Positions 8,155 to 61,387 of a stretch of 64,000 nt of DNA are shown here, in pieces; position 1 is the stretch's first letter, and the number at the start of each line of letters is the position of its first letter. Position numbers and translations under genes: made by a program. The stretch is from Verrucomicrobiota bacterium (GTDB taxonomy: Bacteria > Verrucomicrobiota > Verrucomicrobiia > Verrucomicrobiales > JBCCJK01). The DNA lies in NCBI GenBank assembly GCA_039027815.1, contig JBCCJK010000001.1, positions 52,779-116,778 of the forward strand, written 5' to 3'. The notes below the pieces were generated by a model. That model was not told where the DNA came from. It did no database searches and saw only the letters and a list, made by a program, of their open reading frames with translations.

Positions 8155-8877
8155 TTAGGAGCGGAGCGCGATCTGAGAAAAATCGGAAAGCTCGCTCTGA
8201 ATGCGTTCCTTGGTGGCCTCGTAATCATGCTCCTCCGCGGAAGGCCCCCAGCCCACGCCATCGAGATAGCGGCAATAGTTATCGAAGAGATACCGGAGAG
8301 GCTCTCGGGCATATTTTTCGGAAAAAGACCCCTCCTCAGCGATCAGAAACGCACCTTTGGAAAGACTAATCAGGCCCCAGACAATCTGGTCCGGCTGGGG
8401 AGCATCCTTTGCTAGCTCGCCCTGAGCCGCAGCGTCTTCGGCCACCGCCACCGCCAGCTCAAAACACCGGTCAAAAGTCTGGAAGAAGTAGGCCTGCCGT
8501 TCCTCTGAACACTTCGACCAGATCGAGGGCGAGCGCACCAGCTGCACCAGCGGGAAACCGTGCGGAAAATTTTGCGCCAGCATGCGATCCGCCATGGCGA
8601 AGGCCGTAATGCGCTCTCGGGTCAGCCCTTTGAAGTCATGGGCCGCTTTGAAGGATTCCCAGCGGAGCGTGGCGTGATAGTTGACCACCCCCAAAACGAG
8701 ATCTTCCTTGCTCTTGAAGTGATGATAAAGCGTAGCTTTGGAGTATTCCACTTGCTCCGCCAACTCGTCCAAATTCAGACCGAGGTAGCCATGGGAGGCC
8801 AGCAGACCATCCGCCGCCTTGACCACCATCTCCTCGCGAGCAAGAAATTCGCGCTCTTTTCTCTCAGAAATGCCCAT
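8155..8877 (-). CDS. TetR/AcrR family transcriptional regulator
   Basis: 240 aa with an N-terminal HTH (GYLGLNLDELAEQVEYSKATLYHHFKSKEDLV). Located directly upstream of the RND operon on the same strand. Confidence 0.9.
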   Translation of the reverse strand: MGISERKEREFLAREEMVVKAADGLLASHGYLGLNLDELAEQVEYSKATLYHHFKSKEDLVLGVVNYHATLRWESFKAAHDFKGLTRERITAFAMADRMLAQNFPHGFPLVQLVRSPSIWSKCSEERQAYFFQTFDRCFELAVAVAEDAAAQGELAKDAPQPDQIVWGLISLSKGAFLIAEEGSFSEKYAREPLRYLFDNYCRYLDGVGWGPSAEEHDYEATKERIQSELSDFSQIALRS

Positions 8878-8878
8878 T

Positions 8879-8911
8879 TTGACTCGCGGTTGATTTCTGA
8901 CTACGAGTTAG
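8879..8911. promoter_or_regulatory. Candidate TetR operator pair in divergent tetR / 9032-operon promoter region
   Basis: TTGACTCGCGGTTGA and CTGACTACGAGTTAG lie in tandem immediately upstream of the tetR start. The second is a 5/6 palindrome (CTGACT-acg-AGTTAG). Confidence 0.2.
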
Positions 8912-9031
8912 ACCGGCTTTCCAGATGCCCGCCGAATGCTTTCGAAGCGATCTCCCTCCCCGCTCTCTGGAACAGGGCCTGCCCCCAGGATGAAGCTTGC
9001 GTGAAGAGGGCGGGCACGGCATGCTTTTCTC

Positions 9032-9451
9032 ATGAGAATGCTCTCCTTGTCCTTCCTGGCGCTCGCGGTGACGGCCTCCTCCCAAGAGCTGCCGACCCTC
9101 TCTTGGGAAAGTGAACAAAACGCGGGTGTCCCCCTCGCGGAAGGCCCCGAGCAGACTGTCCGGCTGCGGGTCAACCAATCGGCCATCACGATCGCCCTCG
9201 CGGCCCCGGTTTCGGTGGCCGAACTGGCCCCGGCGGAGTTTGAGGATGGCCAAGTGCCTGCCCAGGCCGTGACCGCGGCCTTTGGCTGGTGGGCCGGTCT
9301 CGGCCAAGCATACTACGCCACCTGGGAGAGCCCCATCCTGACCGTCTACCTCCAGGAAATCCAAGAGCTGGGCGAGGAACTCCCCGCCGAGCAACTTTTG
9401 CAGATCAAAGTGGATCAACGGGGCCAAGCGACCGTCCTGGACGACAAGTAG
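9032..9451 (+). CDS. Hypothetical secreted protein
   Basis: 139-aa ORF with a signal peptide (MRMLSLSFLALAVTASSQE). Codon usage is consistent with its neighbours. No domain recognised. Confidence 0.55.
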   Translation: MRMLSLSFLALAVTASSQELPTLSWESEQNAGVPLAEGPEQTVRLRVNQSAITIALAAPVSVAELAPAEFEDGQVPAQAVTAAFGWWAGLGQAYYATWESPILTVYLQEIQELGEELPAEQLLQIKVDQRGQATVLDDK

Positions 9452-9505
9452 CCGCTCTCTAAATCCTTCCTCGACCCCCTCCGCGTCTCGGGTGTAGAGA
9501 CAGAC

Positions 9506-10114
9506 ATGGCTCGTGTTCTCCCCCTGTTTTTCCTGACCTGCTCGCTCTTTCTGGCGGCTTGCGAGAAGAAGGAACCGCCCCCTGCGGCGCCGTCTCAGGA
9601 AACCAGCCTTCCCCGGCCCCCTGATCGCCCCCCTTTCCACCAGGAACTCTTCCTGGAAGCCGCCCTCAACGGCAACCTGGCCGTCATCGAAGAAGGTCTC
9701 CGACGTGGGAACCAGTTGGAAGCCGAGGGGGAAGGCCAGCGCACCGTCCTCATGCAGGCCTCCTTCAACGGCCACAGCGAAGTCGTTCGCCTGCTCCTGA
9801 AGGCGGGGGCCAACGTCGCTCACCGGGACGCCGCCCGCCGGACCTCGCTCATGTATGCCTGCACGGGCGACAACATGGACACCATTCGCCTCCTTCTTCG
9901 GCATGGGGCCGAGGTCAATGCCGTGGATGGCGAGGAGCAATTCAGTCCTCTCATGTATGCCGCAGCCGAAGGTCTCGCGAGCGTGGTCTCCCTGCTCTTG
10001 GAAAAGGGAGCGGACCCGGAGCATCGCGACCGCGATGGCGATACGGCTGCCGATTTCGCCAGACGAGCCGGGCATCTCGCAGTCGCCAAATTGATCGAAG
10101 AAGCGGCTGGTTGA
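9506..10114 (+). CDS. Ankyrin-repeat lipoprotein
   Basis: 202 aa with lipobox LFLAAC. At least four ANK repeats (e.g. GQRTVLMQASFNGHSEVVRLLLKAGANVAHRD; FSPLMYAAAEGLASVVSLLLEKGADPEHRD). Confidence 0.8.
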   Translation: MARVLPLFFLTCSLFLAACEKKEPPPAAPSQETSLPRPPDRPPFHQELFLEAALNGNLAVIEEGLRRGNQLEAEGEGQRTVLMQASFNGHSEVVRLLLKAGANVAHRDAARRTSLMYACTGDNMDTIRLLLRHGAEVNAVDGEEQFSPLMYAAAEGLASVVSLLLEKGADPEHRDRDGDTAADFARRAGHLAVAKLIEEAAG

Positions 10115-10633
10115 ATGGGCTGCCCGCCACCCCTCATGGCCTCCTTCCCGGAAATCCCCACTCCGCCCCAGCTCTTTCGTCAATTTGACGAAGGACGCAT
10201 CGCTCACGAAGAGCTTCTCGCCAAGCTGCGGGAGCACGCCCTTCTCTTGATCGAAGAAATGGAGGAGAATCACGCCCATCCCCTGCGCGCCTTCTTCGAT
10301 GCGCAACTGGCTCGGCACGCAGCCGCGGTCCTTCGGCGCAAGCACGGCGAGCCCGCCGTTCGTGAAATCCTGGCCGCCTTGGCTCAGCTGGAAGGCTTCC
10401 CCCCGGCGCACCTCCTTTGGAATGCGGAGGATCGCAGCGTCCCGCTTCCCACGCTTTTGCGCCAACGCCAAGAACCCGTCTTCCGCATCCTTCACCTGGA
10501 AGCCAAGGCCCAATTGGCGTCCATCGAAGTTGAGTGGGGTCGTTCTTCTCGCAAACACAGCACGCGGGAGCGCTTCGAGCTCCGGCGCGACTGGGAAGGC
10601 CGTCTTCGCGTGGTCCGACGGAATCCTGCTTGA
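10115..10633 (+). CDS. Hypothetical protein (translationally adjacent to ankyrin gene, TGA-ATG)
   Basis: 172-aa ORF starting at the base after the ankyrin gene's stop. No recognisable domain. Confidence 0.5.
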   Translation: MGCPPPLMASFPEIPTPPQLFRQFDEGRIAHEELLAKLREHALLLIEEMEENHAHPLRAFFDAQLARHAAAVLRRKHGEPAVREILAALAQLEGFPPAHLLWNAEDRSVPLPTLLRQRQEPVFRILHLEAKAQLASIEVEWGRSSRKHSTRERFELRRDWEGRLRVVRRNPA

Positions 10634-10712
10634 AAGCTCGCCCTCCGCAAGCCAACCTCTCGCGCCTTGGCCCTCTCGCCGCCAAGCGATCACCTGCAAG
10701 CCGAACTTTCTC

Positions 10713-11426
10713 ATGGGACGCGCCTTCGAATACCGCCGCAAATCCAAAGAAGCCCGCTGGGACAAAATGTCGAAGGTCTTCCCGAAATTGGCCAAGAGCA
10801 TCACCATCGCGGTCAAGGAAGGCGGCGGCCCCGACCCGGAGTCGAACTCCAAGCTCCGTCTCGCGATCGCCAACGCCAAGGCAGAGAACATGCCCAAAGA
10901 CAATGTTGACAAGGCCATTGCCCGGGCCACGGGCAAGGACGCCGCCGAAATCGTCGAAATCCACTATGAAGGCAAAGGCCCGCATGGGAGCATGCTCTGG
11001 GTCGAGTGCGCCGCCGACAACACCAACCGAACCGTGGCCAGCCTCAAAACCATCCTCAACAAGAACGGTGGCGAAATGGTCAACTCAGGGGCCCTCAGTT
11101 TCCTCTTCACCCGGAAAGCCGTGGTGGAATTCCAAACCACTAGCGAAATGGATTTGGAAGAAGTGGAATTGGAACTCATCGATCACGGGCTGGAAGACTT
11201 TGTCGAGCACCAAGGCCTCGTCACCGTGACCGGAGAATTCACCGCCTTCGGCGCTCTGACCGAAGCGGTGGAAAAGCTGGGAATCACGACCACCAAAACC
11301 AGCCTCAAAATGCTCCCGACCTCGCCCATCGAATTGAGCGAGGCCCAGATGGAAGAGGTGGAGAGCCTGATCGACAAGCTGGAAGACGACGAGGACGTGC
11401 AGGCCGTCTACACCAACATCGCGTAA
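10713..11426 (+). CDS. yebC: YebC/PmpR family DNA-binding regulator
   Basis: ORF 10299-11426 trimmed to the in-frame ATG at 10713. MGRAFEYRRKSKEARWDKMSKVFPKLAKSITIAVKEGGGPDPESNSKLRLAIANAKAENMPKDNVDKAI is the canonical YebC N-terminus. Confidence 0.9.
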   Translation: MGRAFEYRRKSKEARWDKMSKVFPKLAKSITIAVKEGGGPDPESNSKLRLAIANAKAENMPKDNVDKAIARATGKDAAEIVEIHYEGKGPHGSMLWVECAADNTNRTVASLKTILNKNGGEMVNSGALSFLFTRKAVVEFQTTSEMDLEEVELELIDHGLEDFVEHQGLVTVTGEFTAFGALTEAVEKLGITTTKTSLKMLPTSPIELSEAQMEEVESLIDKLEDDEDVQAVYTNIA

Positions 11427-11440
11427 GCCCACGCCTCCGC

Positions 11441-11652
11441 CTCATACCAAGCTGCAGAATTGGCTGGTAGAATGGCCGAGTGGATTTCGGGCCAGACCAA
11501 GGCGCGACGAGGGCGCGGTGCAAGCACCGTAACCGAGGAGCAACGCTGGGCTGGCTCGAAAGACACCGGCTCTCCCTTCCCCGCGCTTCAGCGCCTCTTC
11601 CCCACAACACCTTCCCTCCATTCTTCCAGTGAATTCTGGAGGTTGGTATCAG
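11441..11652 (+). repeat. 212-bp MITE-like / structured repeat, copy 1
   Basis: One of four equal-length copies with 3 differences from the consensus. TIR is ATACCAAGCTGCAGAATTGGCTGG ... CCAGTGAATTCTGGAGGTTGGTAT. Lies between convergent yebC and the nucleotidyltransferase gene, and contains the latter's stop codon (11649-11651). Confidence 0.9.
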
Positions 11653-12554
11653 AAAAGCCTCTCGGGATACTCTCCGGAATCGATGAGCTTTTGGATGCTA
11701 GCGATCACCTGTGGTCGATCCTCTTGGTAGGTCACGCCGAACCATGGGCTCTCTGTTTTCCGCACTCGAACTTCCGCCTTCCCATCCTGGATGAACTTGT
11801 CCACCTCCGCCGGGACATACCACTCGCTCGTGAGCTCCCCGCCTCTGGCCCGCAAAAACTCCACGAAAGAACGCTCCAGGAGCTGGAAGAAGCTGGGACG
11901 GAAAAGCCAGAAATTCATGGAAGCGAGCTCCTCTCCCGTGAGAGCGCACTCCTGGCCCTCCTCCTCATTGTAGACCCCTCCTTCTTTCGCCACGATCTTG
12001 GTCATCTCCTTAACCGAGGTGAGAAAGCCCCGCTCGTTGGCACGACAGATCCCACGGGCGACCGAGCCATACTCCGACAAGGTGTTTTTCAGTTGGAATC
12101 CCACCATTCCATACTGGGCCTTCTCGGACTCATCCCGCTCTTGGGACAGCTCTGCCACCGCCACTTCAAAAGCCTTCCGCCCATAAAAGTCATCCGCGTT
12201 CAGCATGGCAAAGGGTTCCTGGATCAGCTCACGTGCAGCCAAAACCGCATGCGCCGTGCCCCAAGGCTTCTCTCGACCTTCTGGCACAGCAAAGCCCGCC
12301 GGCACATCTTCCAGAGTTTGGAAAGCGAAGTCCACCGGGACCCGCCCTTCATACTTGGCTGTCACCTTCTCGCGAAAGGCCTGCTCAAAGTCCCGGCGGA
12401 TCACAAAAACCACCTTCCCGAAGCCGGCCCGCCGAGCATCGAAGACCGAGTAGTCCATCATGACCTCACCATGCGGCCCCATGGCGTCGAGCTGCTTGAG
12501 CCCGCCATAGCGGCTTCCCATGCCAGCAGCCAAAAGGAGGAGAGTAGGCTTCAC
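11649..12554 (-). CDS. Sugar-phosphate nucleotidyltransferase family protein
   Basis: 301 aa with a GTG start. The N-terminus MKPTLLLLAAGMGSRYGGLKQ is the NTP-transferase glycine-rich loop. The stop TGA lies inside repeat copy 1. Confidence 0.8.
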   Translation of the reverse strand: MKPTLLLLAAGMGSRYGGLKQLDAMGPHGEVMMDYSVFDARRAGFGKVVFVIRRDFEQAFREKVTAKYEGRVPVDFAFQTLEDVPAGFAVPEGREKPWGTAHAVLAARELIQEPFAMLNADDFYGRKAFEVAVAELSQERDESEKAQYGMVGFQLKNTLSEYGSVARGICRANERGFLTSVKEMTKIVAKEGGVYNEEEGQECALTGEELASMNFWLFRPSFFQLLERSFVEFLRARGGELTSEWYVPAEVDKFIQDGKAEVRVRKTESPWFGVTYQEDRPQVIASIQKLIDSGEYPERLF

Positions 12555-12633
12555 CGGGGCTGCCTACCCATCCTGGGGCAGGCACGCAAGATTCAAGTGA
12601 AACCAAGATCCCCTCCCCTCCGGCGCTTGGCCC

Positions 12634-12845
12634 CTGATACCAAGCTGCAGAATTGGCTGGTAGAATGGCCGAGTGGATTTCGGGCCAGACCAAGGCGCGA
12701 CGAGGGCGCGGTGCAGGCACCGTAACCGAAGAGCAACGCAGGGCTGGCTCGAAAGACACCGGCTCTTCCTTCCCTGCGCTTCAGCGCCTCTTCCCCATAA
12801 CACCTCCCCTCCATTCTTCCAGTGAATTCTGGAGGTTGGTATTAG
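12634..12845 (+). repeat. 212-bp MITE-like / structured repeat, copy 2
   Basis: 6 differences from the consensus, no indels. Contains the stop codon TAA (12842-12844) of the ArsC-family gene. Confidence 0.9.
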
Positions 12846-13192
12846 AAGACCGCTTCCCACTCGGCCGGTCGGAAGCCCGAAAGAGCCGTTTTCCCTTGAA
12901 TCACAAAAGGGCGTTTCACGAGGTTTCCGTGCGTCGAAAGCGCCTCCAAGATTTCCGCCTCGCTGGCCTGGGAAAAGGTTGCTTTCCAGCCATCGCGATA
13001 ATCCTGGCTCGAGGTATTGGTGATCTTGCGCCAATTTCCGGCAGCCGCCACCAGGCCCACTCGCAGTTCGGCCACGCTCGGGGGCGTTTCTCGAATAGGG
13101 ATTTCCTCGAAATCGACTCCCCGTGCCTCCAACCACTTCTTCGCCTTGCCGCAGGTCGAACACTTGGCGTAGCCATAGAGTTTCCAACTCAT
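12842..13192 (-). CDS. ArsC/Spx/MgsR-family (YffB-like) thioredoxin-fold protein
   Basis: ORF 12842-13357 trimmed to the Met at 13192. MSWKLYGYAKCSTCGKAKKWLEARGVDFEEIPIRE... is the typical ArsC-family N-terminus with a CxxC-like motif. Confidence 0.8.
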   Translation of the reverse strand: MSWKLYGYAKCSTCGKAKKWLEARGVDFEEIPIRETPPSVAELRVGLVAAAGNWRKITNTSSQDYRDGWKATFSQASEAEILEALSTHGNLVKRPFVIQGKTALSGFRPAEWEAVF

Positions 13193-35371: not shown

Positions 35372-36142
35372 ATGTTCCTACTCTCCACCGATATCGATGG
35401 AACCGTGTATGAGCCGCGCGACAATGGCCAACTCTTCGGAGACTACTGGGCCAAATTGCAAGGGCGACTGACCCCCGCCCCGCGCTTGGTTTACAACACC
35501 GGGCGTTCTCTCGCCGACACCCGTCGACTCATCGAACACAGCCATTTGCCCGACCCCGAATGGATTATCTCCGGCGTAGGTTCCACCATCGCTCAAAGAG
35601 GTGCCTCGGGTCCCTTTGCCCCCTGGTCGGAACACCTCTCTCCCGGTTGGGAACAGGCCGCCATCCACGACTACATCGGCCAGCAAGACCTGGCCCAAGC
35701 CCAACCCGCCGAGTGCCAATCTTCTTTCAAATCGAGTTGGTTTTGGGAAAACGCCTCCCCGGAAGCGCTGGCACAGTTGGAGCAAGGGCTGCGTGCCCAG
35801 GGTTGGGAGGCCCAGCTGGTCTACTCCTCCCAACGAGACCTCGATATCCTGCCGAAGCGAGCCAACAAGGGAAACGCGCTTCGCTTTTTGGCTCAGGAGT
35901 TGGTTGTTTCACTTAGGGAAGTCATCGTGGCCGGCGATTCTGGGAATGATCTCTCTATGATCGAAATCCCCGAAGTCTTTGGGATCATTGTGAACAATGC
36001 CGAGTCCTCTCTCCGGGAAGCCTCTTTTGCTAGCCCGCGCTATTTGGCCTCGGAGGAAAGCGCCCTCGGCGTTCAGGAAGGCTTGGAGTCTTTCTTGGAA
36101 AAACCCCCGCTCCCCCGCCCCGCCGCGGCCGACCCATGCTGA
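35372..36142 (+). CDS. spp: Sucrose-6F-phosphate phosphohydrolase (HAD-IIB)
   Basis: 256 aa with HAD motif I LLSTDIDGTV and motif IV AGDSGNDLSM. Overlaps the SPS start by 7 nt. Confidence 0.75.
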   Translation: MFLLSTDIDGTVYEPRDNGQLFGDYWAKLQGRLTPAPRLVYNTGRSLADTRRLIEHSHLPDPEWIISGVGSTIAQRGASGPFAPWSEHLSPGWEQAAIHDYIGQQDLAQAQPAECQSSFKSSWFWENASPEALAQLEQGLRAQGWEAQLVYSSQRDLDILPKRANKGNALRFLAQELVVSLREVIVAGDSGNDLSMIEIPEVFGIIVNNAESSLREASFASPRYLASEESALGVQEGLESFLEKPPLPRPAAADPC

Positions 36143-38367
36143 AAGACCTTTATCTTGTCCATCTCTCGATCCACGGGCTCATTCGCGGGACCAACCTGGA
36201 GCTGGGTCGCGATGCCGACACCGGTGGCCAGTGCAAGTATGTCCTGGAACTGGTCAAGGCCTTGGCAGAACATCCTTCCACCGGGCAAGTGGATCTTTTC
36301 ACCCGCCAAATCATCGATCCCAAAGTCAGCGCCGACTACAAGAGGCCCGAGGAAAAAATCGCCAAAAACGCTTTCGTCAAGAGAGTCCCGGCCGGCCCCA
36401 AACGCTACCTTCGCAAAGAGACCCTTTGGCGGCACTTGGATGAATTTGTCGATCAATGCCTGGCCCGCTTTCGGGAAGCCGGACGTCTCCCGGACGTCAT
36501 CCATGGTCACTACGCCGATGCCGGTTATGTCGGCAGCCAGTTGGCGTCCCTCTTAGGGTGTCCCTTCATCTTCACGGGGCATTCACTAGGTCGCACGAAA
36601 AAGGCGCGCCTCCTGGTGGGGAAAGCCGATCCCCAGCGGATCGAAAAACGCTACAATCTCGGGGCCCGCTTGGAAGCCGAGGAAATGGCCCTCGACGCGG
36701 CCTCTTTTGTCTGCACGAGCACGACCCAGGAAGTCGAAGAACAGTATTCGGTCTATGAAAATTACGATCCCGCTCGCATGCGGGTCATCCCGCCCGGCGT
36801 CGATGTGGATCGTTTTGCCAAGCCCGTCCCTCCCCCGCTGCGAGAGCGAGTGGTCGCCAAACTGGGTCGTTTTCTGCGAGCGCCGGATCGACCCGCCATC
36901 CTGGCCATCGCCCGCGCCGACGAGAAGAAGAACCTCAGCTCTCTGGTGAAAGCCTACGGCCAAAACCAAGGCCTTCAAGAAAAGGCCAACCTGGTCATCG
37001 TGGCTGGCAATCGCGAGTCGCTCTCCGAACTGAACGCCGGAGCGCGCCGAGTCTGGACGGAGCTCCTCCAACTCATCGATGACTTTGATCTCCATGGCCG
37101 AGTCGCCATCCCCAAACAGCACGAACCCGATGAGATCCCGGCCTTCTATCAGTTTGCCGAGCAAACGGGTGGTCTCTTCGTCAATCCCGCCCTCACCGAA
37201 CCCTTCGGACTCACCTTGATCGAGGCCGCCTCGGCCGGGACCCCCGTCGTGGCCACCCATGATGGCGGACCGCAAGACATCCTCGCCAACTGTCAAAATG
37301 GTCTCCTCGTGGACCCCACCAACATCCCGGAAATCTCCCAAGCCCTCAGCCAAGCGCTCTCTGACCAGAAACAATGGCGCACTTGGTCGGCGTCTGGCAA
37401 GGAGGGCGTCCGCCGCCACTACTCCTGGCCCGGGCATGTCGAACGCTACCTCAAAGAAGCAGAAGGCTTTCTCAAGGAAATCACCGAGCCCAATCTCATC
37501 CTCCAAAAGCAGCGAACTGGCCTGCCTCTGACCGATCGCATTGTCTTCACCGGCCTGTCCGATGACTTCCTGGAAGGCGATGCCGAAGCCCTCGCCAGCG
37601 CGCGAGAAATCCTCGAGTCGGACGTGCCCAAATTGGGCTTCGGGATTGCCAGCGGACGCGACCTGAAGTCAGCCATTTCCCTCCTCCGGGAACTCGGCCT
37701 CCCGCAACCGGACGTCTACATAACGCAGTTAGGCGCAGACATTCACTATGGGTCCCGCAAAGTGCTGGACAAAAAATGGCACCAACATCTTTCCTATCGC
37801 TGGGACGCCGAGGGGATTCGGCAGCTCCTGGAGGGCGTGCCCGGGATCCGCTTGCAGACTGAAAAGGGTCGCCAGCATCCCTTTAAGATCTCTTACCACT
37901 ACGAAACCGAGGTCGCCGACTCCCGTCGCGCCCTCCAAAGGCTGCTTCGCGAGGCCAACCTGGCGGCCAAGGTCATCCTTTCCCAAGACAGCCTGCTCGA
38001 TATCATACCGATTCGCTCCGGCAAAGGTCTGGCCATTCGCCATGTGGCTTGGCGTTGGGGCATTCCGGCCGACAATGTGCTTTTTTATGCCCGCCGAGGC
38101 AGCGACTACGAAGCGCTTTCTGGTCAGTTCTTGGGAGTCCTCGGCTCTGACCACTCCCCGGAACTCAAACCGACCGCCCACCTCCCCCGGGTCTACGCCT
38201 CGCCCTACCCCAACTTCCGCGGCCTCCTCGACGGCATCCGCGCTTACCAGTTCGACACCCGGATCCGTGTCCCCAAAAGCGCTCAAGGCCTTGAGCCCGT
38301 CGGCGGCCAGGAACAAGAGTCCGCCTTGCAACCCGACGTCGTCGTTCATTTCGACAAAGAAGAATAA
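36136..38367 (+). CDS. sps: Sucrose-phosphate synthase (GT4 domain + C-terminal SPP-like domain)
   Basis: 743 aa. The N-terminus LVHLSIHGLIRGTNLELGRDADTGGQCKYVLELVKAL is the characteristic SPS signature. EPFGLTLIEAAS GT-B motif is present, followed by a C-terminal HAD-like domain. Confidence 0.85.
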   Translation: MLKDLYLVHLSIHGLIRGTNLELGRDADTGGQCKYVLELVKALAEHPSTGQVDLFTRQIIDPKVSADYKRPEEKIAKNAFVKRVPAGPKRYLRKETLWRHLDEFVDQCLARFREAGRLPDVIHGHYADAGYVGSQLASLLGCPFIFTGHSLGRTKKARLLVGKADPQRIEKRYNLGARLEAEEMALDAASFVCTSTTQEVEEQYSVYENYDPARMRVIPPGVDVDRFAKPVPPPLRERVVAKLGRFLRAPDRPAILAIARADEKKNLSSLVKAYGQNQGLQEKANLVIVAGNRESLSELNAGARRVWTELLQLIDDFDLHGRVAIPKQHEPDEIPAFYQFAEQTGGLFVNPALTEPFGLTLIEAASAGTPVVATHDGGPQDILANCQNGLLVDPTNIPEISQALSQALSDQKQWRTWSASGKEGVRRHYSWPGHVERYLKEAEGFLKEITEPNLILQKQRTGLPLTDRIVFTGLSDDFLEGDAEALASAREILESDVPKLGFGIASGRDLKSAISLLRELGLPQPDVYITQLGADIHYGSRKVLDKKWHQHLSYRWDAEGIRQLLEGVPGIRLQTEKGRQHPFKISYHYETEVADSRRALQRLLREANLAAKVILSQDSLLDIIPIRSGKGLAIRHVAWRWGIPADNVLFYARRGSDYEALSGQFLGVLGSDHSPELKPTAHLPRVYASPYPNFRGLLDGIRAYQFDTRIRVPKSAQGLEPVGGQEQESALQPDVVVHFDKEE

Positions 38368-38390
38368 CCCCCCGATCCCCCGCGCCTGAA

Positions 38391-39302
38391 ATGAGCCAAG
38401 AAGCCCCACCCCTCCTCGCTGGTCTCGAAGCGGGCGGCACCAAGATGGTGTGCGCCGTGGCCCAGACCCCCGAGGAAATCCTGCGGGAAACCCGCATTCC
38501 CACCACCCAGCCGGAGGAAACCCTCTCGGCGGTAGCCGCCTTCTTTCGGGAAGCCACCCAAGACTTCGGCCCCTTGGCCTCCCTTGGCATCGGCTCCTTT
38601 GGCCCCGCCAACGTGCATGCCCGCTCCCCAGGTTTTGGAGAAATTCTCACGACTCCCAAGGAAGGCTGGACGGGAGTGAATATGATCCAGCGAGTCCAAG
38701 AGCAGTTGGCTGAACCGGTCCCGATCGCCTTCGACACCGACGTGAACGCGGCCGCCATCGGGGAGGCCAGTTTCGGCGCCGGTCGCGGTCATCGCTATGT
38801 CTGCTATGTCACCGTCGGCACGGGCATCGGCGGCGGATTTCTCATGGATGGGCAGCCCTTGCACGGGCGGATGCATCCAGAAATCGGCCACATGGCCATG
38901 CCGAATCTGGATCTCGAATACGGGAAAGACACCAATGTTTGCCCCTTTCACCTCTCCTGTTTGGAAGGTCGTGCCAGCGGTACCGCGCTCAACACCCGCT
39001 GGGGCCAGCATGGGAGCGAGCTGCCCGAGGACCATCCCGCCTGGGAACTGCATGCCCGCTATCTCTCGCTGGCCGCCATGAATCTGACGGCCGCTTGGTC
39101 GCCCGACGTCATTCTCTTTGGCGGAGGAGTCTTCCAACAGGCGGGCTTGATCGACCGCATTCGCAGCACCTTTGAGAAGGATACCGGAGGCTATTGGTCG
39201 CTCCCGCCCCTCGATGTCTACCTGCAAACCCCCGAGCTCGGCCAGCAGGCCGGCATCGTGGGAGCCCTGGTCATGGCCCAGCGAGCGGTCACCCCATTCT
39301 AA
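38391..39302 (+). CDS. ROK-family fructokinase
   Basis: 303 aa with motifs LEAGGTKMVCAV and VGTGIGGG, plus a Cys/His zinc motif (HPEIGHM...CPFHLSCLE). Confidence 0.8.
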   Translation: MSQEAPPLLAGLEAGGTKMVCAVAQTPEEILRETRIPTTQPEETLSAVAAFFREATQDFGPLASLGIGSFGPANVHARSPGFGEILTTPKEGWTGVNMIQRVQEQLAEPVPIAFDTDVNAAAIGEASFGAGRGHRYVCYVTVGTGIGGGFLMDGQPLHGRMHPEIGHMAMPNLDLEYGKDTNVCPFHLSCLEGRASGTALNTRWGQHGSELPEDHPAWELHARYLSLAAMNLTAAWSPDVILFGGGVFQQAGLIDRIRSTFEKDTGGYWSLPPLDVYLQTPELGQQAGIVGALVMAQRAVTPF

Positions 39303-39309
39303 CGCGGTT

Positions 39310-41265
39310 ATGAGTTCCCCTCACCAAGCCAGCGATCGACAGATCCGGGTCACCCTGGAGCGGCTTCTGGCCAAGCTTCAGGAGCGGTTTCCCGTGGAAA
39401 GCCAGACGCCCGATTGGGAAGTCTTTGAGCTGCGTTTGCGGGATCACTTTCCAGCCCTTTTCGGACGTCTCCTGACCCTCTACGGGGGGCACTTTGATTT
39501 CTTCTACCACCTCTTGAATCTCGCCGAAACCATGGTGCGGCTGTGGGTGGAGCGGCCAGCCGAATTGCGCAGCATGGACGCCATTCGGGAGGGGGATCCC
39601 ACTTGGTATCAGTCGGGGCGACTGGTCGGGGCCATGGCCTACGTCGACCTCTTCTCGGGCGATCTCCAGGGACTCCGGGAGCAAATCCCCTATCTCCAGT
39701 CTCTCGGCATCACCTACCTCCACCTCATGCCTCTCTACCAAACGCCGGAGGGCGACGATGATGGGGGCTACGCCGTCAGCAGCTACCGTGAAGTGGACGC
39801 CCAACTCGGGACGCGAGCCGACCTGGAGGAGCTCACAAACGAACTCCGGCAGCACGGCATCAGCCTGGTCCTCGACTTTGTCTTCAATCACACCTCCGAC
39901 CAGCACCACTGGGCCCGCCGAGCCCGCGAAGGGGATGAGACCTTTCAGGACTACTACCTCATGTTCGACTCCCGGCGGGAGCCCGACGAATATGAGCAAC
40001 ACCTCCGCTCCATCTTCCCGGATGATCGGCCGGGCTGTTTCACCTATATCAATCGACTCAAAAAATGGGTCTGGACCACCTTCCACACCTACCAGTGGGA
40101 TCTCAATTACCGCAATCCCGAGGTCTTCATCGCCATGGTGGAAGAAATGCTCTTTTTGAATAACCTAGGCGTGGAAGTCTTGCGTATGGACGCAGTGCCT
40201 TTTGTTTGGAAGCAAAAAGGCACCAACTGCGAGAACCTGCCCGAAGCCCATTTGGTGATTGAGGCCTTCAATGCCATCACCCGGGTCGTCGCTCCCGGTG
40301 TCATCTTCAAATCCGAGGCCATCGTGGCCCCCGATCAAATCTCCGAATACATCGCGACCGACCAATGCCAGTTGTCCTACAATCCCCTCATGATGTCGCT
40401 CCTCTGGGAGGGACTGGCCACTCGGAGCGCCAAGCTCTTGCGGCATTCGCTGCAAAAGCGACTCGACATCGCGACTGGCTGTTCCTGGGTCAACTACGTC
40501 CGAAGCCACGACGACATCGGCTGGGGCTTTGACAATCGCGATGCCGAAGAGCAGGAGATCGACCCGCATGGGCACCGGCACTTTCTCACCCAATTCTTCG
40601 CAGGTCGTCACGAATCCACCTTCTCGGATGGAGACACCTTCCAAGAAGACCCTCGCACGGGGGACGCCCGCATCGTCGGGACGACCGCTTCCCTCTGCGG
40701 CTTGGGCCTGGCCATGGCCGCGGCCGACGAACGGGAAATCAAACTCGCCCTGGATCGCATCCTTCTCCTCTACAGCATCACCTTCACCATCGGGGGGATT
40801 CCCCTGATTTACCTGGGGGATGAGATCGGGATGCTCAACGATCCAAGCTACCGGGAAGATCTTGATAAAGAAGGCGACTCTCGTTGGCTGCATCGGCCTT
40901 ACTTTGACTGGGACAAGGCCGCCCAGCGCCATGTCGCCGGCACGCCGGAAAATCTGCTCTTCCAAGGATTCCTGAAACTGAATCAAATCCGCATGAACAA
41001 CTCCGCGCTCGCCCAAGGCGAGACCGAAGTCATTCATACCGAGAATGACCACGTCCTTGGTTGGTTCCGCACCAACTCCGAGCAATCCGTCCTCTGTCTG
41101 GGAAATTTCAGCGATCGCACTCAATCGATCGCCGCCACCCGTCTCCGGCAACTCGGTCTCCGTAAAGCCTTGGTCGATATCGTGGCCGGCAAGCACATCC
41201 TGGCATCCAAGCGGCTTGAATTGGAGCCTCTTCAGTTCATGGTCCTTTTGACCCAAGGCGGATGA
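39310..41265 (+). CDS. Amylosucrase (GH13)
   Basis: In-frame ATG at 39310 within ORF 39172-41265. DLFSGDLQGLREQIPYLQSLGITYLHLMPLYQTPEGDDDGGYAVSSYREVD...LVLDFVFNHTSDQHHWA closely parallels Neisseria amylosucrase as I recall it. Confidence 0.85.
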   Translation: MSSPHQASDRQIRVTLERLLAKLQERFPVESQTPDWEVFELRLRDHFPALFGRLLTLYGGHFDFFYHLLNLAETMVRLWVERPAELRSMDAIREGDPTWYQSGRLVGAMAYVDLFSGDLQGLREQIPYLQSLGITYLHLMPLYQTPEGDDDGGYAVSSYREVDAQLGTRADLEELTNELRQHGISLVLDFVFNHTSDQHHWARRAREGDETFQDYYLMFDSRREPDEYEQHLRSIFPDDRPGCFTYINRLKKWVWTTFHTYQWDLNYRNPEVFIAMVEEMLFLNNLGVEVLRMDAVPFVWKQKGTNCENLPEAHLVIEAFNAITRVVAPGVIFKSEAIVAPDQISEYIATDQCQLSYNPLMMSLLWEGLATRSAKLLRHSLQKRLDIATGCSWVNYVRSHDDIGWGFDNRDAEEQEIDPHGHRHFLTQFFAGRHESTFSDGDTFQEDPRTGDARIVGTTASLCGLGLAMAAADEREIKLALDRILLLYSITFTIGGIPLIYLGDEIGMLNDPSYREDLDKEGDSRWLHRPYFDWDKAAQRHVAGTPENLLFQGFLKLNQIRMNNSALAQGETEVIHTENDHVLGWFRTNSEQSVLCLGNFSDRTQSIAATRLRQLGLRKALVDIVAGKHILASKRLELEPLQFMVLLTQGG

Positions 41266-45031: not shown

Positions 45032-45730
45032 CTACACCCCGCGCTTGCTCCCATACAAGCGAACATGCAGTCGGTCAGAAAAGCGGTAGCCATGCTGGAG
45101 ACACAGCTCACTGACCCACTCGGATTTCTCGTCGAGCGCCTCCAGCATCGTGCCTTCTGGCATAAGGAAAATCCGCTCCGCCTCCAAGCCCAACTCACTG
45201 CGGAGTTTCTCCACTTCCGAAAAATCCGCTTCGCTCGCGATGACAAACTTGAAATCCGCCTTCCGGCTTTCCGCGAAGAAACGCAAAGCCCTCTCCCGTT
45301 GCCGAACCTCTTCCCGGTTGCCAGAGTTCGCCAGTTTTGGGGAGACCGCATAGTAGTCAGCCCGCCCTTCGGTGACCTCGCTCGGTCGGATGGTGCCGTT
45401 GGTCTCAAACTCCACCCGGAAATCCCCCCCCAGCAGGGGCCAAAGCTGTCCTAACTCGCTTTGTTGCACGAGAGGCTCTCCTCCGGTGAAAATCAGATTG
45501 CGACATCCGTAAGAACGAATTCGGCTCGCCAAGTCTGCCACGCTCATCTCGTAGCTCTCTTTTTCCTGATCGAACTCTTTCCAATTCCAAGTGTAAGCGG
45601 TGTCACACCAGCTGCAGTGCAAGTTGCAGCCGGAAAGGCGGACGAACACGCTCGGGCGACCGGTATGCCGCCCTTCCCCTTGGAGAGAATGGAAGATTTC
45701 TGGGCCATCGCCGCATCGCGCTAGCTTCAT
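45032..45730 (-). CDS. queE: 7-carboxy-7-deazaguanine synthase (radical SAM)
   Basis: 232 aa. IFHSLQGEGRHTGRPSVFVRLSGCNLHCSWCDT is the QueE cluster motif. The start overlaps the gyrA stop. Confidence 0.85.
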   Translation of the reverse strand: MKLARCGDGPEIFHSLQGEGRHTGRPSVFVRLSGCNLHCSWCDTAYTWNWKEFDQEKESYEMSVADLASRIRSYGCRNLIFTGGEPLVQQSELGQLWPLLGGDFRVEFETNGTIRPSEVTEGRADYYAVSPKLANSGNREEVRQRERALRFFAESRKADFKFVIASEADFSEVEKLRSELGLEAERIFLMPEGTMLEALDEKSEWVSELCLQHGYRFSDRLHVRLYGSKRGV

Positions 45731-48327: not shown

Positions 48328-48355
48328 TTCAATCTCCTCTTACTCCCCTCTTTGC

Positions 48356-50944
<2,589 letters not shown>

Positions 50945-58671: not shown

Positions 58672-58748
<77 letters not shown>

Positions 58749-58836: not shown

Positions 58837-59048
58837 CTCATACCAAGCTGCAGAATTGGCTGGTAGAATGGCCGAGTGGATTTCGGGCCAGACCAAGGCG
58901 CGGTGAGGGCGCGGTGCAGGCACCGTAACCGAGGAGCAACGCAGGGCTGGCTCGAAAGACACCGGCTCTCCCTTCCCCGCGCTTCAGCGCCTCTTCCTCA
59001 CAACACCTCCCCTCCATTCTTCCAGTGAATTCTGGAGGTTGGTATCAG
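58837..59048 (+). repeat. 212-bp MITE-like / structured repeat, copy 3
   Basis: 3 differences from the consensus. Lies between the TonB-dependent receptor stop (59051-59053) and the tRNA-Asp promoter. Its TCA triplet (59045-59047) is in frame with the receptor CDS. Confidence 0.9.
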
Positions 59049-61145: not shown

Positions 61146-61178
61146 AAAAAGAGGTCTCGGGTCAACTGAAAAGACCTC
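61146..61178 (-). terminator. Terminator-like hairpin + T5 between repeat copy 4 and the TonB-receptor start
   Basis: The minus strand reads GAGGTCT-(14 nt loop)-AGACCTC then TTTTT, followed by CGGGAGGGAGGGGCTC-ATG. The stem is 7 bp, and its 5' arm starts with the last 3 nt of the repeat. Confidence 0.4.
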
Positions 61179-61387
61179 ATACCAAGCTGCAGAATTGGCT
61201 GGTAGAATGGCCGAGTGGATTTCGGGCCAGACCAAGGCGCGACCAGGGCGCGGTGCAGGCACCGTAACCGAGGAGCAACGCAGGCCTGGCTCGAAAGACA
61301 CCGGCTCTCCCTTCCCCGCGCTTCAGCGCCTCTTCCCCACATCACCTCCCCTCCATTCTTCCAGTGAATTCTGGAGGTTGGTATCAC
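61176..61387 (+). repeat. 212-bp MITE-like / structured repeat, copy 4
   Basis: 4 differences from the consensus. Contains the stop codon TGA (61384-61386) of the FtsX-type permease gene. Lies 46 nt upstream of the TonB-receptor start. Confidence 0.9.

What the first reader, a model, noticed from the sequence alone, without database searches (positions are those of the whole stretch)
11441..11652. Unrecognised 212-bp repeat family: four equal-length, same-strand copies with terminal inverted repeats and a hairpin-rich core (MITE-like or structured RNA)
Copies lie at 11441-11652, 12634-12845, 58837-59048 and 61176-61387. All are on the same strand and all are exactly 212 nt, with no indels. 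My by-eye alignment gives 3, 6, 3 and 4 differences from the majority consensus, roughly 97-99% identity. Positions 4-66 and the last ~40 nt before the terminal triplet are invariant; every substitution falls in the centre or in the terminal triplets. The ends form an imperfect TIR: ATACCAAGCTGCAGAATTGGCTGG versus the reverse complement of CCAGTGAATTCTGGAGGTTGGTAT is 20/24 identical, or 22/27 if the flanking CTS/SAG triplets are included. The interior contains many short GC hairpins: GGCCGA-N7-TCGGGCC, GCGC-N7-GCGC, GGTGC-AG-GCACC, GCGC-TTCA-GCGC and CTTCCAG-TGAATT-CTGGAGG. Several substitutions sit in predicted loops (gacgagg/ggtgagg/gaccagg; AG vs AA). There is no transposase and no ORF with a conserved stop. 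I cannot assign it to any IS, MITE or RNA family I know. Identical length and near-identity imply recent spread or strong constraint.
Basis: partly seen in the sequence, partly recalled or inferred. Interest (0 to 1): 0.8.

Follow-up and report, generated by a model that had tools for sequence, protein, structure and literature searches.

The report
New small transposon on stop codons
Four near-identical 212-base repeats in this uncultured Verrucomicrobiales chromosome are copies of a previously undescribed miniature transposon without its own transposase (a MITE); it inserts at C|TNA|G sites, so it usually lands on a gene's stop codon and duplicates it, which is a tidy but ordinary kind of selfish DNA.

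Summary
There are four same-strand, indel-free 212-nt copies, 97.6-98.6% identical to their consensus, with unrelated flanks. A Logan contig of the same organism carries the right end of a fifth copy 4.5 kb left of the window.

The terminal inverted repeat is 35 nt, not 24-27. The variable terminal triplets are best read as a host-derived 3-bp duplication, not part of the element: C[TCA]-TACC...GGTA-[TCA]G. The mobile core is then 204 bp.

All five copies abut the stop codon of a minus-strand gene. In four, the gene's TGA or TAA is the duplicated triplet itself, and the protein ends look native. This needs no special targeting. The region is about 94% coding, and 10 of about 22 usable CTNAG sites are stop codons.

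C|TNA|G with a 3-bp duplication is typical of IS5 (IS1031 group) and PIF/Harbinger-type transposases. The window has no transposase, integrase or Rfam match. Exact-word scans of genome, metagenome and viral collections found no other copy, and a plasmid BLAST found none either.

A long hairpin is predicted, but there is no covariation.

Verdict: a new member of a known kind (bacterial MITE), of modest interest.

The parts
11441..11652 (+). Copy 1, reading C[TCA]-core-[TCA]G. It lies between the convergent YebC gene (10713-11426 +) and the NTP-transferase gene (11649-12554 -). The NTP-transferase stop TGA is 11649-11651, which is the right-hand duplicated triplet.
12634..12845 (+). Copy 2, reading C[TGA]-core-[TTA]G. 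The two triplets do not match. It lies between the ArsC/Spx-family gene (12842-13192 -, stop TAA = 12842-12844) and the start of the NTP-transferase gene (12554), leaving a 79-nt spacer.
58837..59048 (+). Copy 3, reading C[TCA]-core-[TCA]G. It lies between tRNA-Asp (58672-58748 -) and the TonB-dependent receptor gene (59051-61129 -). The receptor keeps its own stop TGA at 59051-53, separated by one codon from the in-frame right-hand triplet at 59045-47.
61176..61387 (+). Copy 4, reading C[TCA]-core-[TCA]C. It lies between the FtsX/MacB-type permease gene (61384 to beyond 64000 -, stop TGA = 61384-86) and the TonB-receptor start (61129), leaving a 46-nt spacer.
11445..11475 (+). Left terminal inverted repeat (consensus positions 5-35, TACCAAGCTGCAGAATTGGCTGGTAGAATGG). 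It is invariant in all four copies. The same offsets apply in copies 2-4.
11618..11648 (+). Right terminal inverted repeat (consensus positions 178-208, CCATTCTTCCAGTGAATTCTGGAGGTTGGTA). It is invariant in the four copies. The fifth copy carries T185A and G202C, and both changes turn arm mismatches into pairs.
11475..11570 (+). Internal second inverted repeat (consensus 35-58 pairing with 109-130), with GC-rich apical hairpins. The loop at 67-69 is a substitution hot spot.
11571..11618 (+). C/T-rich stretch of 48 nt (consensus 131-178), predicted unpaired apart from the GCGC-TTCA-GCGC hairpin. It carries 6 of the 13 internal substitutions.

Best explanation
The repeat is a non-autonomous DNA transposon (a MITE).

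Anatomy: a 204-bp core (TACCAAGC...GGTTGGTA) is bounded by 35-bp imperfect terminal inverted repeats. It has no gene of its own.

Mechanism (inferred): a DDE transposase encoded elsewhere in the genome mobilises it in trans. By its target, that transposase is most likely of the IS5 family (IS1031-like) or the PIF/Harbinger superfamily. It inserts at 5'-C|TNA|G-3' and duplicates the central TNA.

Why stop codons: the chromosome is about 94% coding. TGA and TAA stop codons flanked by C and G are therefore nearly half of the target sites where an insertion does no harm. Duplicating the triplet regenerates the stop, so the protein is unchanged. Copies therefore accumulate exactly on stop codons.

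History: the private, unshared substitutions (1.4-2.8% per copy) indicate a fairly recent burst from one master sequence.

Shown: copies, boundaries, inverted repeats, flanking triplets, positions on stop codons, absence of coding capacity and of any described RNA family.

Inferred: the transposase type, mobilisation in trans, and any effect of the co-transcribed hairpin on neighbouring mRNAs.
For: Copies and boundaries:
- Four 212-nt copies with unrelated flanks.
- A fifth right end on Logan contig L003.
- Logan contigs of the same organism break 29-30 nt inside the element, as expected for a multi-copy repeat.

Inverted repeats and duplication:
- The arms are 35 nt.
- The flanking triplets are direct repeats (TCA/TCA) in 3 of the 4 complete copies. 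They are preceded by C in 4 of 4 and followed by G in 4 of 5.
- The triplets vary while the adjacent TIR never does (P = 0.0014). The right triplet is TCA or TTA, matching the TGA or TAA stop of the abutting gene. This is what target-derived sequence should look like.

Native gene ends:
- NTP-transferase homologues end one or two residues from ours.
- The TonB receptor ends in the canonical ...TFTF and the permease in ...LRNE.
- The ArsC domain runs to the C-terminus.

Site statistics:
- With the elements removed, 24 CTNAG sites lie outside coding sequence in 67.7 kb. Ten of about 22 usable ones are stop codons.
- The chance that at least 4 of 5 copies fall on stops is 0.10-0.14.
- Two pairs each flanking a single gene has P of about 0.17.

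Literature:
- The IS1031 group of IS5 prefers 5'-TNA-3' and makes a 3-bp repeat (PMC12016507).
- PIF/Harbinger-superfamily 'NuwaII' elements target C|TNA|G (PMC4482050).

Other:
- No substitution falls in 62 TIR positions (P = 0.008).
- No peptide homologue in six frames.
- No Rfam or tRNA match.
Against: - No autonomous element with these inverted repeats was found. The window has no transposase and I could not search the rest of the genome.
- Copy 2 has non-matching triplets (TGA left, TTA right), which needs a later mutation.
- Copy 4's target is G|TGA|G on the gene strand, not C|TGA|G.
- The ends (TACC...) do not resemble the GA/GG ends usually quoted for IS5-family elements. That comparison is from memory and was not tested.
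- No empty site was available. The closest relatives are only 64-65% identical in protein and are not syntenic.
- All five copies share one strand and all abut minus-strand genes (P = 0.06). The simple model does not predict this.
- There are only five junctions.
Confidence: 0.8

Rival explanations
1. The element is a selected or actively targeted 3'-end module. In this reading it is placed on stop codons in a fixed orientation relative to the gene, or is retained only there. It would then act in the mRNA of the upstream gene as a long hairpin: an RNase III site, a barrier to 3' exonucleases, or an attenuator between co-directional genes. It could still be a MITE in origin.
For: - Five of five copies abut a stop codon, all with the same end toward the gene and antisense to it.
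- Substitutions avoid predicted paired positions: 3 of 13 against 62% expected (P = 0.004); in the interior alone P = 0.03.
- In copy 2 the two odd terminal bases form a G.T pair where the other copies have a C.C mismatch.
- Copies 2 and 4 sit between co-directional genes and must be co-transcribed unless termination occurs first.
- ERIC, NEMIS and YPAL elements act this way, as reviewed in PMC3733652 and PMC2229807.
Against: - Target preference plus purifying selection already gives P of 0.10-0.14 for the stop-codon pattern.
- The orientation bias is only P = 0.06. It cannot be separated from replication strand, because GC skew is uniformly negative and all five host genes are on the minus strand.
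- Eight C|TRA|G stop codons are unoccupied.
- The gene-sense (minus) strand RNA folds no better than its shuffles (z = -1.2).
- No U-tract follows the stem, and no promoter or convincing terminator consensus was found.
- There is no covariation.
Confidence: 0.1
2. The element is a multi-copy structured non-coding RNA gene transcribed from the + strand. In this reading the C-rich single-stranded stretch (CCUCCCC, CUUCCCC) would base-pair with Shine-Dalgarno regions. The inverted repeats would be a closing stem rather than transposase sites.
For: - The + strand RNA folds to -100.6 kcal/mol, z = -6.35 against shuffles.
- A 48-nt C/U-rich stretch is predicted unpaired.
- Substitutions are enriched in unpaired positions.
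Against: - No Rfam family even at E up to 10.
- No promoter-like site on either strand, and no terminator-like site apart from one weak match at copy 2's right end.
- No compensatory change.
- Only 3 G.U pairs in the fold, so the strand asymmetry reflects composition rather than wobble pairs.
- Flanking direct triplets and stop-codon-exact positions are properties of insertion, not of RNA genes.
- The C-rich stretch is the most variable part of the element.
- The element is absent from the genome (species-representative), metagenome and viral collections scanned for exact words.
Confidence: 0.05
3. The copies are attC-like recombination sites of gene cassettes (integron-type). In this reading imperfect palindromes directly follow each cassette gene in one orientation, and single genes are bracketed by two sites.
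For: - Each pair (copies 1 and 2; copies 3 and 4) brackets exactly one gene.
- All copies follow gene ends in one orientation.
- One strand folds better than the other.
Against: - No integrase or other recombinase in the window.
- The bracketed genes are core-type, set among gyrB, gyrA, recR and nadA.
- 212 nt is well above the usual attC length, and the ends do not fit the RYYYAAC/GTTRRRY cores. The consensus is from memory; I checked it by eye.
- Bracketing of single genes is not improbable by chance (P of about 0.17).
Confidence: 0.02
4. The copies are remnants of larger segmental duplications, or an assembly artefact.
For: None beyond the repetition itself.
Against: - Similarity stops at the 212-nt borders in all copies.
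- Each copy has private substitutions.
- An independent Logan assembly of run SRR22824308 reproduces the junctions of copies 1, 2 and 4.
Confidence: 0.01

Closest known systems
MITEs mobilised by IS5-family insertion sequences, in particular the IS1031 group (target 5'-TNA-3', 3-bp direct repeat; PMC12016507)
   Same: The flanking duplication is 3 bp of the form TNA (TCA/TGA, TTA/TAA). The element has terminal inverted repeats, is small and has no coding capacity.
   Different: No IS1031-type or any other transposase partner was found. The ends (TACC...) are unlike the GA-type ends quoted for these IS, for example GAACCTGTC... for ISLrh in PMC12016507. The arms are 35 bp, against 17 bp in ISLrh.
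PIF/Harbinger superfamily and its Tourist-type MITEs (such as mPing); the 'NuwaII' group with target C|TNA|G (PMC4482050, PMC2836001)
   Same: The target pattern C|TNA|G with a 3-bp duplication is the same. Non-autonomous short derivatives with inverted repeats amplify to many near-identical copies.
   Different: Those are eukaryotic elements. Here the host is a bacterium, so the relation is at most at the level of the shared IS5/PIF-Harbinger transposase superfamily.
ERIC, YPAL and Correia/NEMIS elements of enterobacteria, Yersinia and Neisseria (PMC2229807, PMC3733652)
   Same: All are 100-200-bp intergenic repeats with inverted ends. They sit next to coding sequences, are co-transcribed, and fold into a long end-to-end RNA hairpin that can alter mRNA stability.
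   Different: There is no sequence similarity. Those elements mostly use TA targets or variable duplications and are A+T-richer. No effect on RNA is shown here.
Rickettsia palindromic elements (RPE) and the 107-bp Correia species
   Same: The core length is a multiple of three (204 nt) and several reading frames are open, so an in-frame insertion would not truncate a protein.
   Different: No copy here lies inside a coding sequence. The open frames are not kept in all copies, so they are probably chance or ancestral.
REP/REPIN elements mobilised by RAYT transposases
   Same: Both are palindromic intergenic repeats that often lie just after stop codons. GTAG-tagged REPs are known in Verrucomicrobia (Opitutus terrae; PMC3733652).
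   Different: REPs are 20-40 bp and REPINs about 100 bp, and they have no true terminal inverted repeats or target duplication. This element is 204 bp with 35-bp arms and a 3-bp duplication.

Membership tests
[quoted passage not shown] | Short length (about 70-300 bp) | tested here: met
   The core is 204 bp, or 212 bp with the flanking triplets and C/G. The size range is from PMC3733652.
[quoted passage not shown] | Terminal inverted repeats | tested here: met
   The arms are 35 nt at 83-86% identity. 29 pairs form. The arms are invariant among copies (P = 0.008).
[quoted passage not shown] | Target-site duplication flanking each copy | tested here: inconclusive
   TCA/TCA flanks 3 of the 4 complete copies, but copy 2 has TGA/TTA. 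The triplets vary as host sequence would (P = 0.0014). No empty site was available to prove duplication.
[quoted passage not shown] | No coding capacity | tested here: met
   A six-frame peptide query against 5.8 billion proteins gave no hit at E <= 0.001. The open frames are not conserved among copies.
[quoted passage not shown] | Multiple near-identical copies in unrelated genomic contexts | tested here: met
   There are four copies in the window plus one outside, all with unrelated flanks.
[quoted passage not shown] | A full-length IS in the same or a related genome with matching inverted repeats | not testable with these tools
   There is none in the 64-kb window or the 15 kb of adjoining Logan contigs. 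The rest of the 268-kb source contig and genome could not be read. Exact-word scans of the genome (species-representative), metagenome and viral collections found no true match.
IS5 family, IS1031 group / PIF-Harbinger superfamily (as the mobilising transposase) | 3-bp duplication of TNA, with C and G flanking the target (C|TNA|G) | tested here: met
   The left sides read C[TCA] in three copies and C[TGA] in copy 2. The right sides read [TCA]G twice, [TCA]C once and [TTA]G twice. The reference patterns are from PMC12016507 and PMC4482050.
IS5 family, IS1031 group / PIF-Harbinger superfamily (as the mobilising transposase) | DDE transposase (DDE_Tnp_1/DDE_Tnp_4 type) associated with the same ends | not testable with these tools
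   No transposase domain was found in any of about 55 ORFs in the window.
IS5 family, IS1031 group / PIF-Harbinger superfamily (as the mobilising transposase) | Similarity of the end sequence to known family members | not tested
   ISfinder is not available here. The one published IS1031-group end I read (GAACCTGTCTAGTATCT, PMC12016507) is unlike TACCAAGCTGCAG.
Described RNA family (Rfam) or tRNA/tmRNA | Match to a covariance model at or near the gathering score | tested here: not met
   Only two ordinary tRNAs match in the window. Nothing within the element matches, even at E up to 10.
Integron attC site | Associated integrase, and R''/R' core sites at the ends | tested here: not met
   The window has no tyrosine recombinase. 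The ends do not fit the core consensus, which I recalled from memory and compared by eye.

The most novel reading that the evidence does not exclude
The element may not be merely tolerated at stop codons. It may be placed there, or kept only there, in one orientation relative to the gene. That would make it a mobile 3'-end module whose hairpin changes the fate of the upstream mRNA or insulates neighbouring genes, and whose insertion is coupled to gene ends or to the replication strand. If a whole-genome census showed dozens of copies almost all on stop codons and all antisense to the gene, far beyond what C|TNA|G availability predicts, this would be an unusual case of stop-codon homing by a bacterial transposon.
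Probability: 0.1. Interest if true: 0.6.

Novelty: new member of a known kind. Interest (0 to 1): 0.3.

Why it matters
The finding adds a MITE family to a phylum (Verrucomicrobiota) where I found none described, although my literature search was limited. It also shows how target choice (C|TNA|G) and a compact genome together drive a transposon onto stop codons without damaging proteins.

In practice, the element explains why short-read assemblies of this organism break at gene ends: the Logan contigs end 29-30 nt inside it. It is also a ready marker for strain typing, and a handle for finding the active transposase. None of this changes how transposons are thought to work.

Tried and rejected
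Searches that found nothing:
- Rfam at gathering threshold over the whole window, and at E up to 10 over 11300-13000: nothing in the element. ARAGORN found only tRNA-Thr and tRNA-Asp.
- An exact-word scan of 185,579 species-representative genomes with the left-arm 21-mer gave one hit, inside a coding sequence of a Rhodobacteraceae MAG with no other similarity. I treat it as chance.
- Two metagenome scans (a degenerate 24-mer matching both arms, and an internal 22-mer) and one viral scan gave zero hits. A plasmid blastn gave only weak chance hits.
- A six-frame peptide query, meant to catch spurious ORFs called across other copies, gave no hits.
- Low-stringency blastn and nhmmer of the window and all fetched loci found no partial, solo-arm or diverged copies.

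Comparisons that could not be made:
- Empty-site comparison in relatives failed. The best NTP-transferase homologues are 64-65% identical and have different neighbours.

Ideas tested and rejected:
- Covariation: the four copies have no power and show no compensatory change.
- 'Stop-codon homing' as a necessity: rejected after counting the available CTNAG sites.
- 'Cassette-like pairs around single genes' as significant: rejected by simulation.
- A TA duplication (IS630/mariner type) or a 4-5-bp duplication: rejected, because the conserved CTCA/TCAG would then have to be host sequence at every site, and the candidate 4-5-mers are not direct repeats.
- Strand asymmetry of folding as evidence for an RNA: weak, because only 3 G.U pairs are involved.
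- A resemblance of positions 26-45 (GGTAGAATGGCCGAGTGG) to the 5' part of class II tRNAs. This is from memory, and neither ARAGORN nor Rfam supports it.

Full report
1. THE OBSERVATION

The four copies are real and lie exactly at the stated coordinates. MAFFT aligns them over 212 columns without a gap, with mean column identity 98% and 3, 6, 3 and 4 private differences from the consensus. Blastn gives 97.6-98.6% identity. Each terminal 24-mer occurs four times against zero in 100 shuffles. Similarity stops at the borders: the repeat finder extends the family by only 4 loosely similar C-rich bases, and the 60-nt flanks are unrelated. Low-stringency blastn and nhmmer find no further full, partial or solo-end copies in the window.

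Positions 1-35 align with the reverse complement of 178-212 at 83-86% identity.

2. SETTING

The best homologues of the gene between copies 1 and 2 come from Verrucomicrobiales / Verrucomicrobiaceae / Prosthecobacter MAGs, but at only 64-65% identity. The organism is therefore a poorly sampled lineage. Its own contig is 268 kb.

The window is ordinary chromosome. It carries gyrB, gyrA, recR, nadA, a lipoyl-synthase-like gene, malate dehydrogenase, an AcrB-type efflux operon and a sucrose-phosphate synthase/phosphatase cluster. None of about 55 ORFs has a transposase or integrase domain. GC content is 60%, and GC skew of the + strand is negative throughout.

3. WHERE THE COPIES SIT

Every copy abuts the stop codon of a minus-strand gene, with the element's right end toward the gene.

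- Copy 1: the NTP-transferase stop TGA is 11649-11651, which is element positions 209-211.
- Copy 2: the ArsC/Spx-family stop TAA is 12842-12844.
- Copy 3: the TonB-dependent receptor keeps its own TGA at 59051-53. After one further codon, the element's in-frame TGA follows.
- Copy 4: the FtsX/MacB-type permease stop TGA is 61384-86.

A fifth junction came from a Logan assembly of run SRR22824308, which contains the same organism. Contig L003 overlaps the window from its position 4573. It begins with 29 nt of the element's right end, TACCAGTGAATTCTGGAGCTTGGTATTAG. These are followed by a minus-strand NAD-kinase gene whose stop TAA is again positions 209-211.

Logan contigs L002 and L004 end 29-30 nt and 28 nt inside copies 1, 2 and 4. 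This is the behaviour expected of a multi-copy repeat in a k-mer assembly, and it confirms the junctions independently.

The protein ends look native:
- NTP-transferase homologues end ...YPxxLW(G/A), and ours ends ...YPERLF.
- The receptor ends in the usual terminal Phe (...TFTF).
- The permease ends ...LRNE.
- The ArsC domain reaches the C-terminus.

4. BOUNDARIES AND TARGET

On the + strand the complete copies read C[TCA]-TACC...GGTA-[TCA]G (copies 1 and 3), C[TCA]...[TCA]C (copy 4) and C[TGA]...[TTA]G (copy 2). The fifth copy reads ...[TTA]G.

Three points argue that the triplets are a host-derived 3-bp duplication and not part of the element.
- They are direct repeats in 3 of the 4 complete copies. 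Seen as an inverted repeat, they give the central mismatch that a duplicated T-N-A must give.
- They differ from the consensus in 3 of 32 cells, while the adjacent 62 arm positions differ in 0 of 248 (Fisher P = 0.0014).
- The right triplet is TCA or TTA according to whether the abutting gene ends in TGA or TAA.

Copy 2 does not fit cleanly. Its mismatched triplets need one later substitution in the copy that no longer serves as a stop. The two odd bases also happen to form a G.T pair.

The mobile core is therefore 204 bp. The inferred target is 5'-C|TNA|G-3'. This is the pattern reported for the IS1031 group of the IS5 family (5'-TNA-3' with a 3-bp repeat; PMC12016507). It is also the pattern, including the flanking C and G, of the 'NuwaII' group of the PIF/Harbinger superfamily (PMC4482050).

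5. IS THE STOP-CODON ASSOCIATION SPECIAL?

I called genes with a codon-usage log-odds model. The result agrees with the Logan gene calls where they overlap. I then removed the elements in silico.

- Only about 4 kb of 67.7 kb is non-coding.
- Of 118 CTNAG sites, 24 have the TNA outside coding sequence.
- Two of those are inside tRNA genes. Ten of the remaining 22 are stop codons.
- If insertions survive only at such sites, the chance that at least 4 of 5 fall on stop codons is 0.10-0.14.
- Eight C|TRA|G stop codons are unoccupied.
- A simulation on the same site list gives P of about 0.17 for two pairs lying within 2.5 kb, as seen for copies 1/2 and 3/4, each of which brackets a single gene.

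Neither the stop-codon position nor the 'cassette-like' pairs need a special mechanism. Target preference plus purifying selection in a compact genome is enough. Duplicating the triplet regenerates the stop, so the host protein is untouched.

What remains unexplained is that all five copies share one strand and all five host genes are on the minus strand (P = 0.06). This cannot be separated from replication strand or chance with five copies.

6. STRUCTURE

The + strand folds as RNA to -100.6 kcal/mol (z = -6.35). The - strand folds to -85.1 (z = -1.2).

The fold has these parts:
- an outer stem formed by the arms (1-34/179-212);
- a second long stem (35-58/109-130);
- small GC hairpins at the apex;
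- a 48-nt C/T-rich unpaired stretch (131-178) with one 4-bp hairpin.

Only 3 of 66 pairs are G.U, so the strand asymmetry is mostly compositional. Counting pairs across the four copies shows no change on both sides of any pair, so covariation has no power here.

Substitutions avoid paired positions. Three of 13 fall in pairs against 62% expected (P = 0.004); for the interior alone P = 0.03. They also avoid the arms (P = 0.008). This fits constraint on transposase-binding ends. It weakly suggests some constraint on the hairpin, but it does not establish an RNA function.

No sigma-70-like promoter consensus was found on either strand. The only terminator-like match in the element is a weak one at copy 2's right end.

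7. SEARCHES ELSEWHERE

- Nothing in Rfam matches the element.
- No true match to the arms or to an internal 22-mer was found in 185,579 species-representative genomes. The single hit was a chance 21-mer inside a coding sequence.
- JGI metagenomes gave no hits in two scans. IMG/VR gave none. Plasmids gave none.
- A six-frame peptide query against 5.8 billion proteins found nothing.
- Loci from the closest relatives carry no trace of the element and are not syntenic, so no orthologous empty site could be examined.

Among the collections available here, the family was seen only in this organism. These scans need exact words of 21-24 bases, so diverged relatives would be missed.

8. EXPLANATION AND RIVALS

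Best explanation (confidence about 0.8): a MITE mobilised in trans by an unidentified DDE transposase with C|TNA|G target preference, amplified fairly recently from one master sequence. All 16 variable positions are private to single copies, at 1.4-2.8% per copy.

The assignment of the transposase to the IS5/PIF-Harbinger superfamily rests on the target pattern alone. I would put it near 0.5.

Rivals:
- A selected or gene-end-coupled 3' module (0.1).
- A + strand structured RNA gene (0.05).
- attC-like cassette sites (0.02).
- Duplication remnants or an artefact (0.01).

Their evidence is set out in the corresponding fields.

9. COMPARISON AND NOVELTY

By anatomy this is a typical bacterial MITE, as defined in PMC3733652 and PMC2229807: 70-300 bp, inverted ends, no coding capacity, next to genes, folding into a robust hairpin. 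It has no sequence relation to any family I could search, and no partner IS is yet known.

It is a new member of a known kind. The accumulation on stop codons is neat, but it follows from known target rules.

10. LIMITS

- There are only five junctions.
- No empty site and no transposase were available.
- My gene map is home-made.
- ISfinder was not available.
- The remainder of the genome could not be read.

Noticed in passing
L003:1-29 (about 4.5 kb left of window position 1): The fifth copy's right arm differs from the four window copies at consensus positions 185 (T>A) and 202 (G>C). Both changes turn arm mismatches into Watson-Crick pairs with the left arm. Because the Logan contig still breaks 29 nt inside, at least one more copy must share this variant. 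That suggests a second subfamily, or the end of the autonomous element.
   Followed up: partly
window 11445-11648 and the same span in copies 2-4: The core is exactly 204 nt (68 codons), and 3 of 6 frames are open in the consensus (P of about 0.02 in shuffles). On the gene strand, the frame set by the host stop codon runs open to the duplicated TGA, which is 69 codons. Individual copies have since gained stops, so this is probably chance or ancestral. It resembles the Rickettsia RPE and the 107-bp Correia elements.
   Followed up: partly
window 11507-11509, 58903-58905, 61242-61244 (consensus 67-69): Three substitutions cluster in one apical loop (GACGAGG / GGTGAGG / GACCAGG), out of only 13 internal differences. 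I have no explanation for this.
   Followed up: no
window 11466-11485 (consensus 26-45): GGTAGAATGGCCGAGTGGAT resembles the acceptor and D-arm start of class II tRNAs (Ser/Leu). This is from memory. ARAGORN and Rfam give no tRNA-like call here.
   Followed up: partly
window 11571-11618 (consensus 131-178), minus strand: On the gene-sense strand this stretch is G-rich, with four runs of three or four G's, one spacer of which holds the GCGC hairpin. A G-quadruplex, or an i-motif on the + strand, is conceivable. I did not test this.
   Followed up: no
window 1-64000: GC skew of the + strand is negative in every 4-kb bin. gyrB-gyrA (45727-50923) and most long genes are on the minus strand. The minus strand is probably the leading strand, so the one-strand bias of the element is confounded with replication direction.
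   Followed up: partly
window 9506-10114 (+) and 9038-9451, 10136-10633 (+): An ankyrin-repeat protein is flanked by two ORFs with no Pfam match. A long antisense ORF (8864-10936) overlapping them is probably a shadow.
   Followed up: no
window 35372-41265: This is a cluster for sucrose metabolism: sucrose-phosphate phosphatase, a fused sucrose-phosphate synthase/phosphatase, a ROK kinase and an alpha-amylase-family enzyme. That is unusual enough for a verrucomicrobium to deserve a look.
   Followed up: no
L004 (record positions 1-246, not retrievable): The far end of the 13.5-kb Logan contig to the right of the window lies about 60 nt past the stop of a Peptidase_S8 gene. That gene is on the + strand in window orientation. 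This could be another copy of the element, but I could not read it.
   Followed up: no
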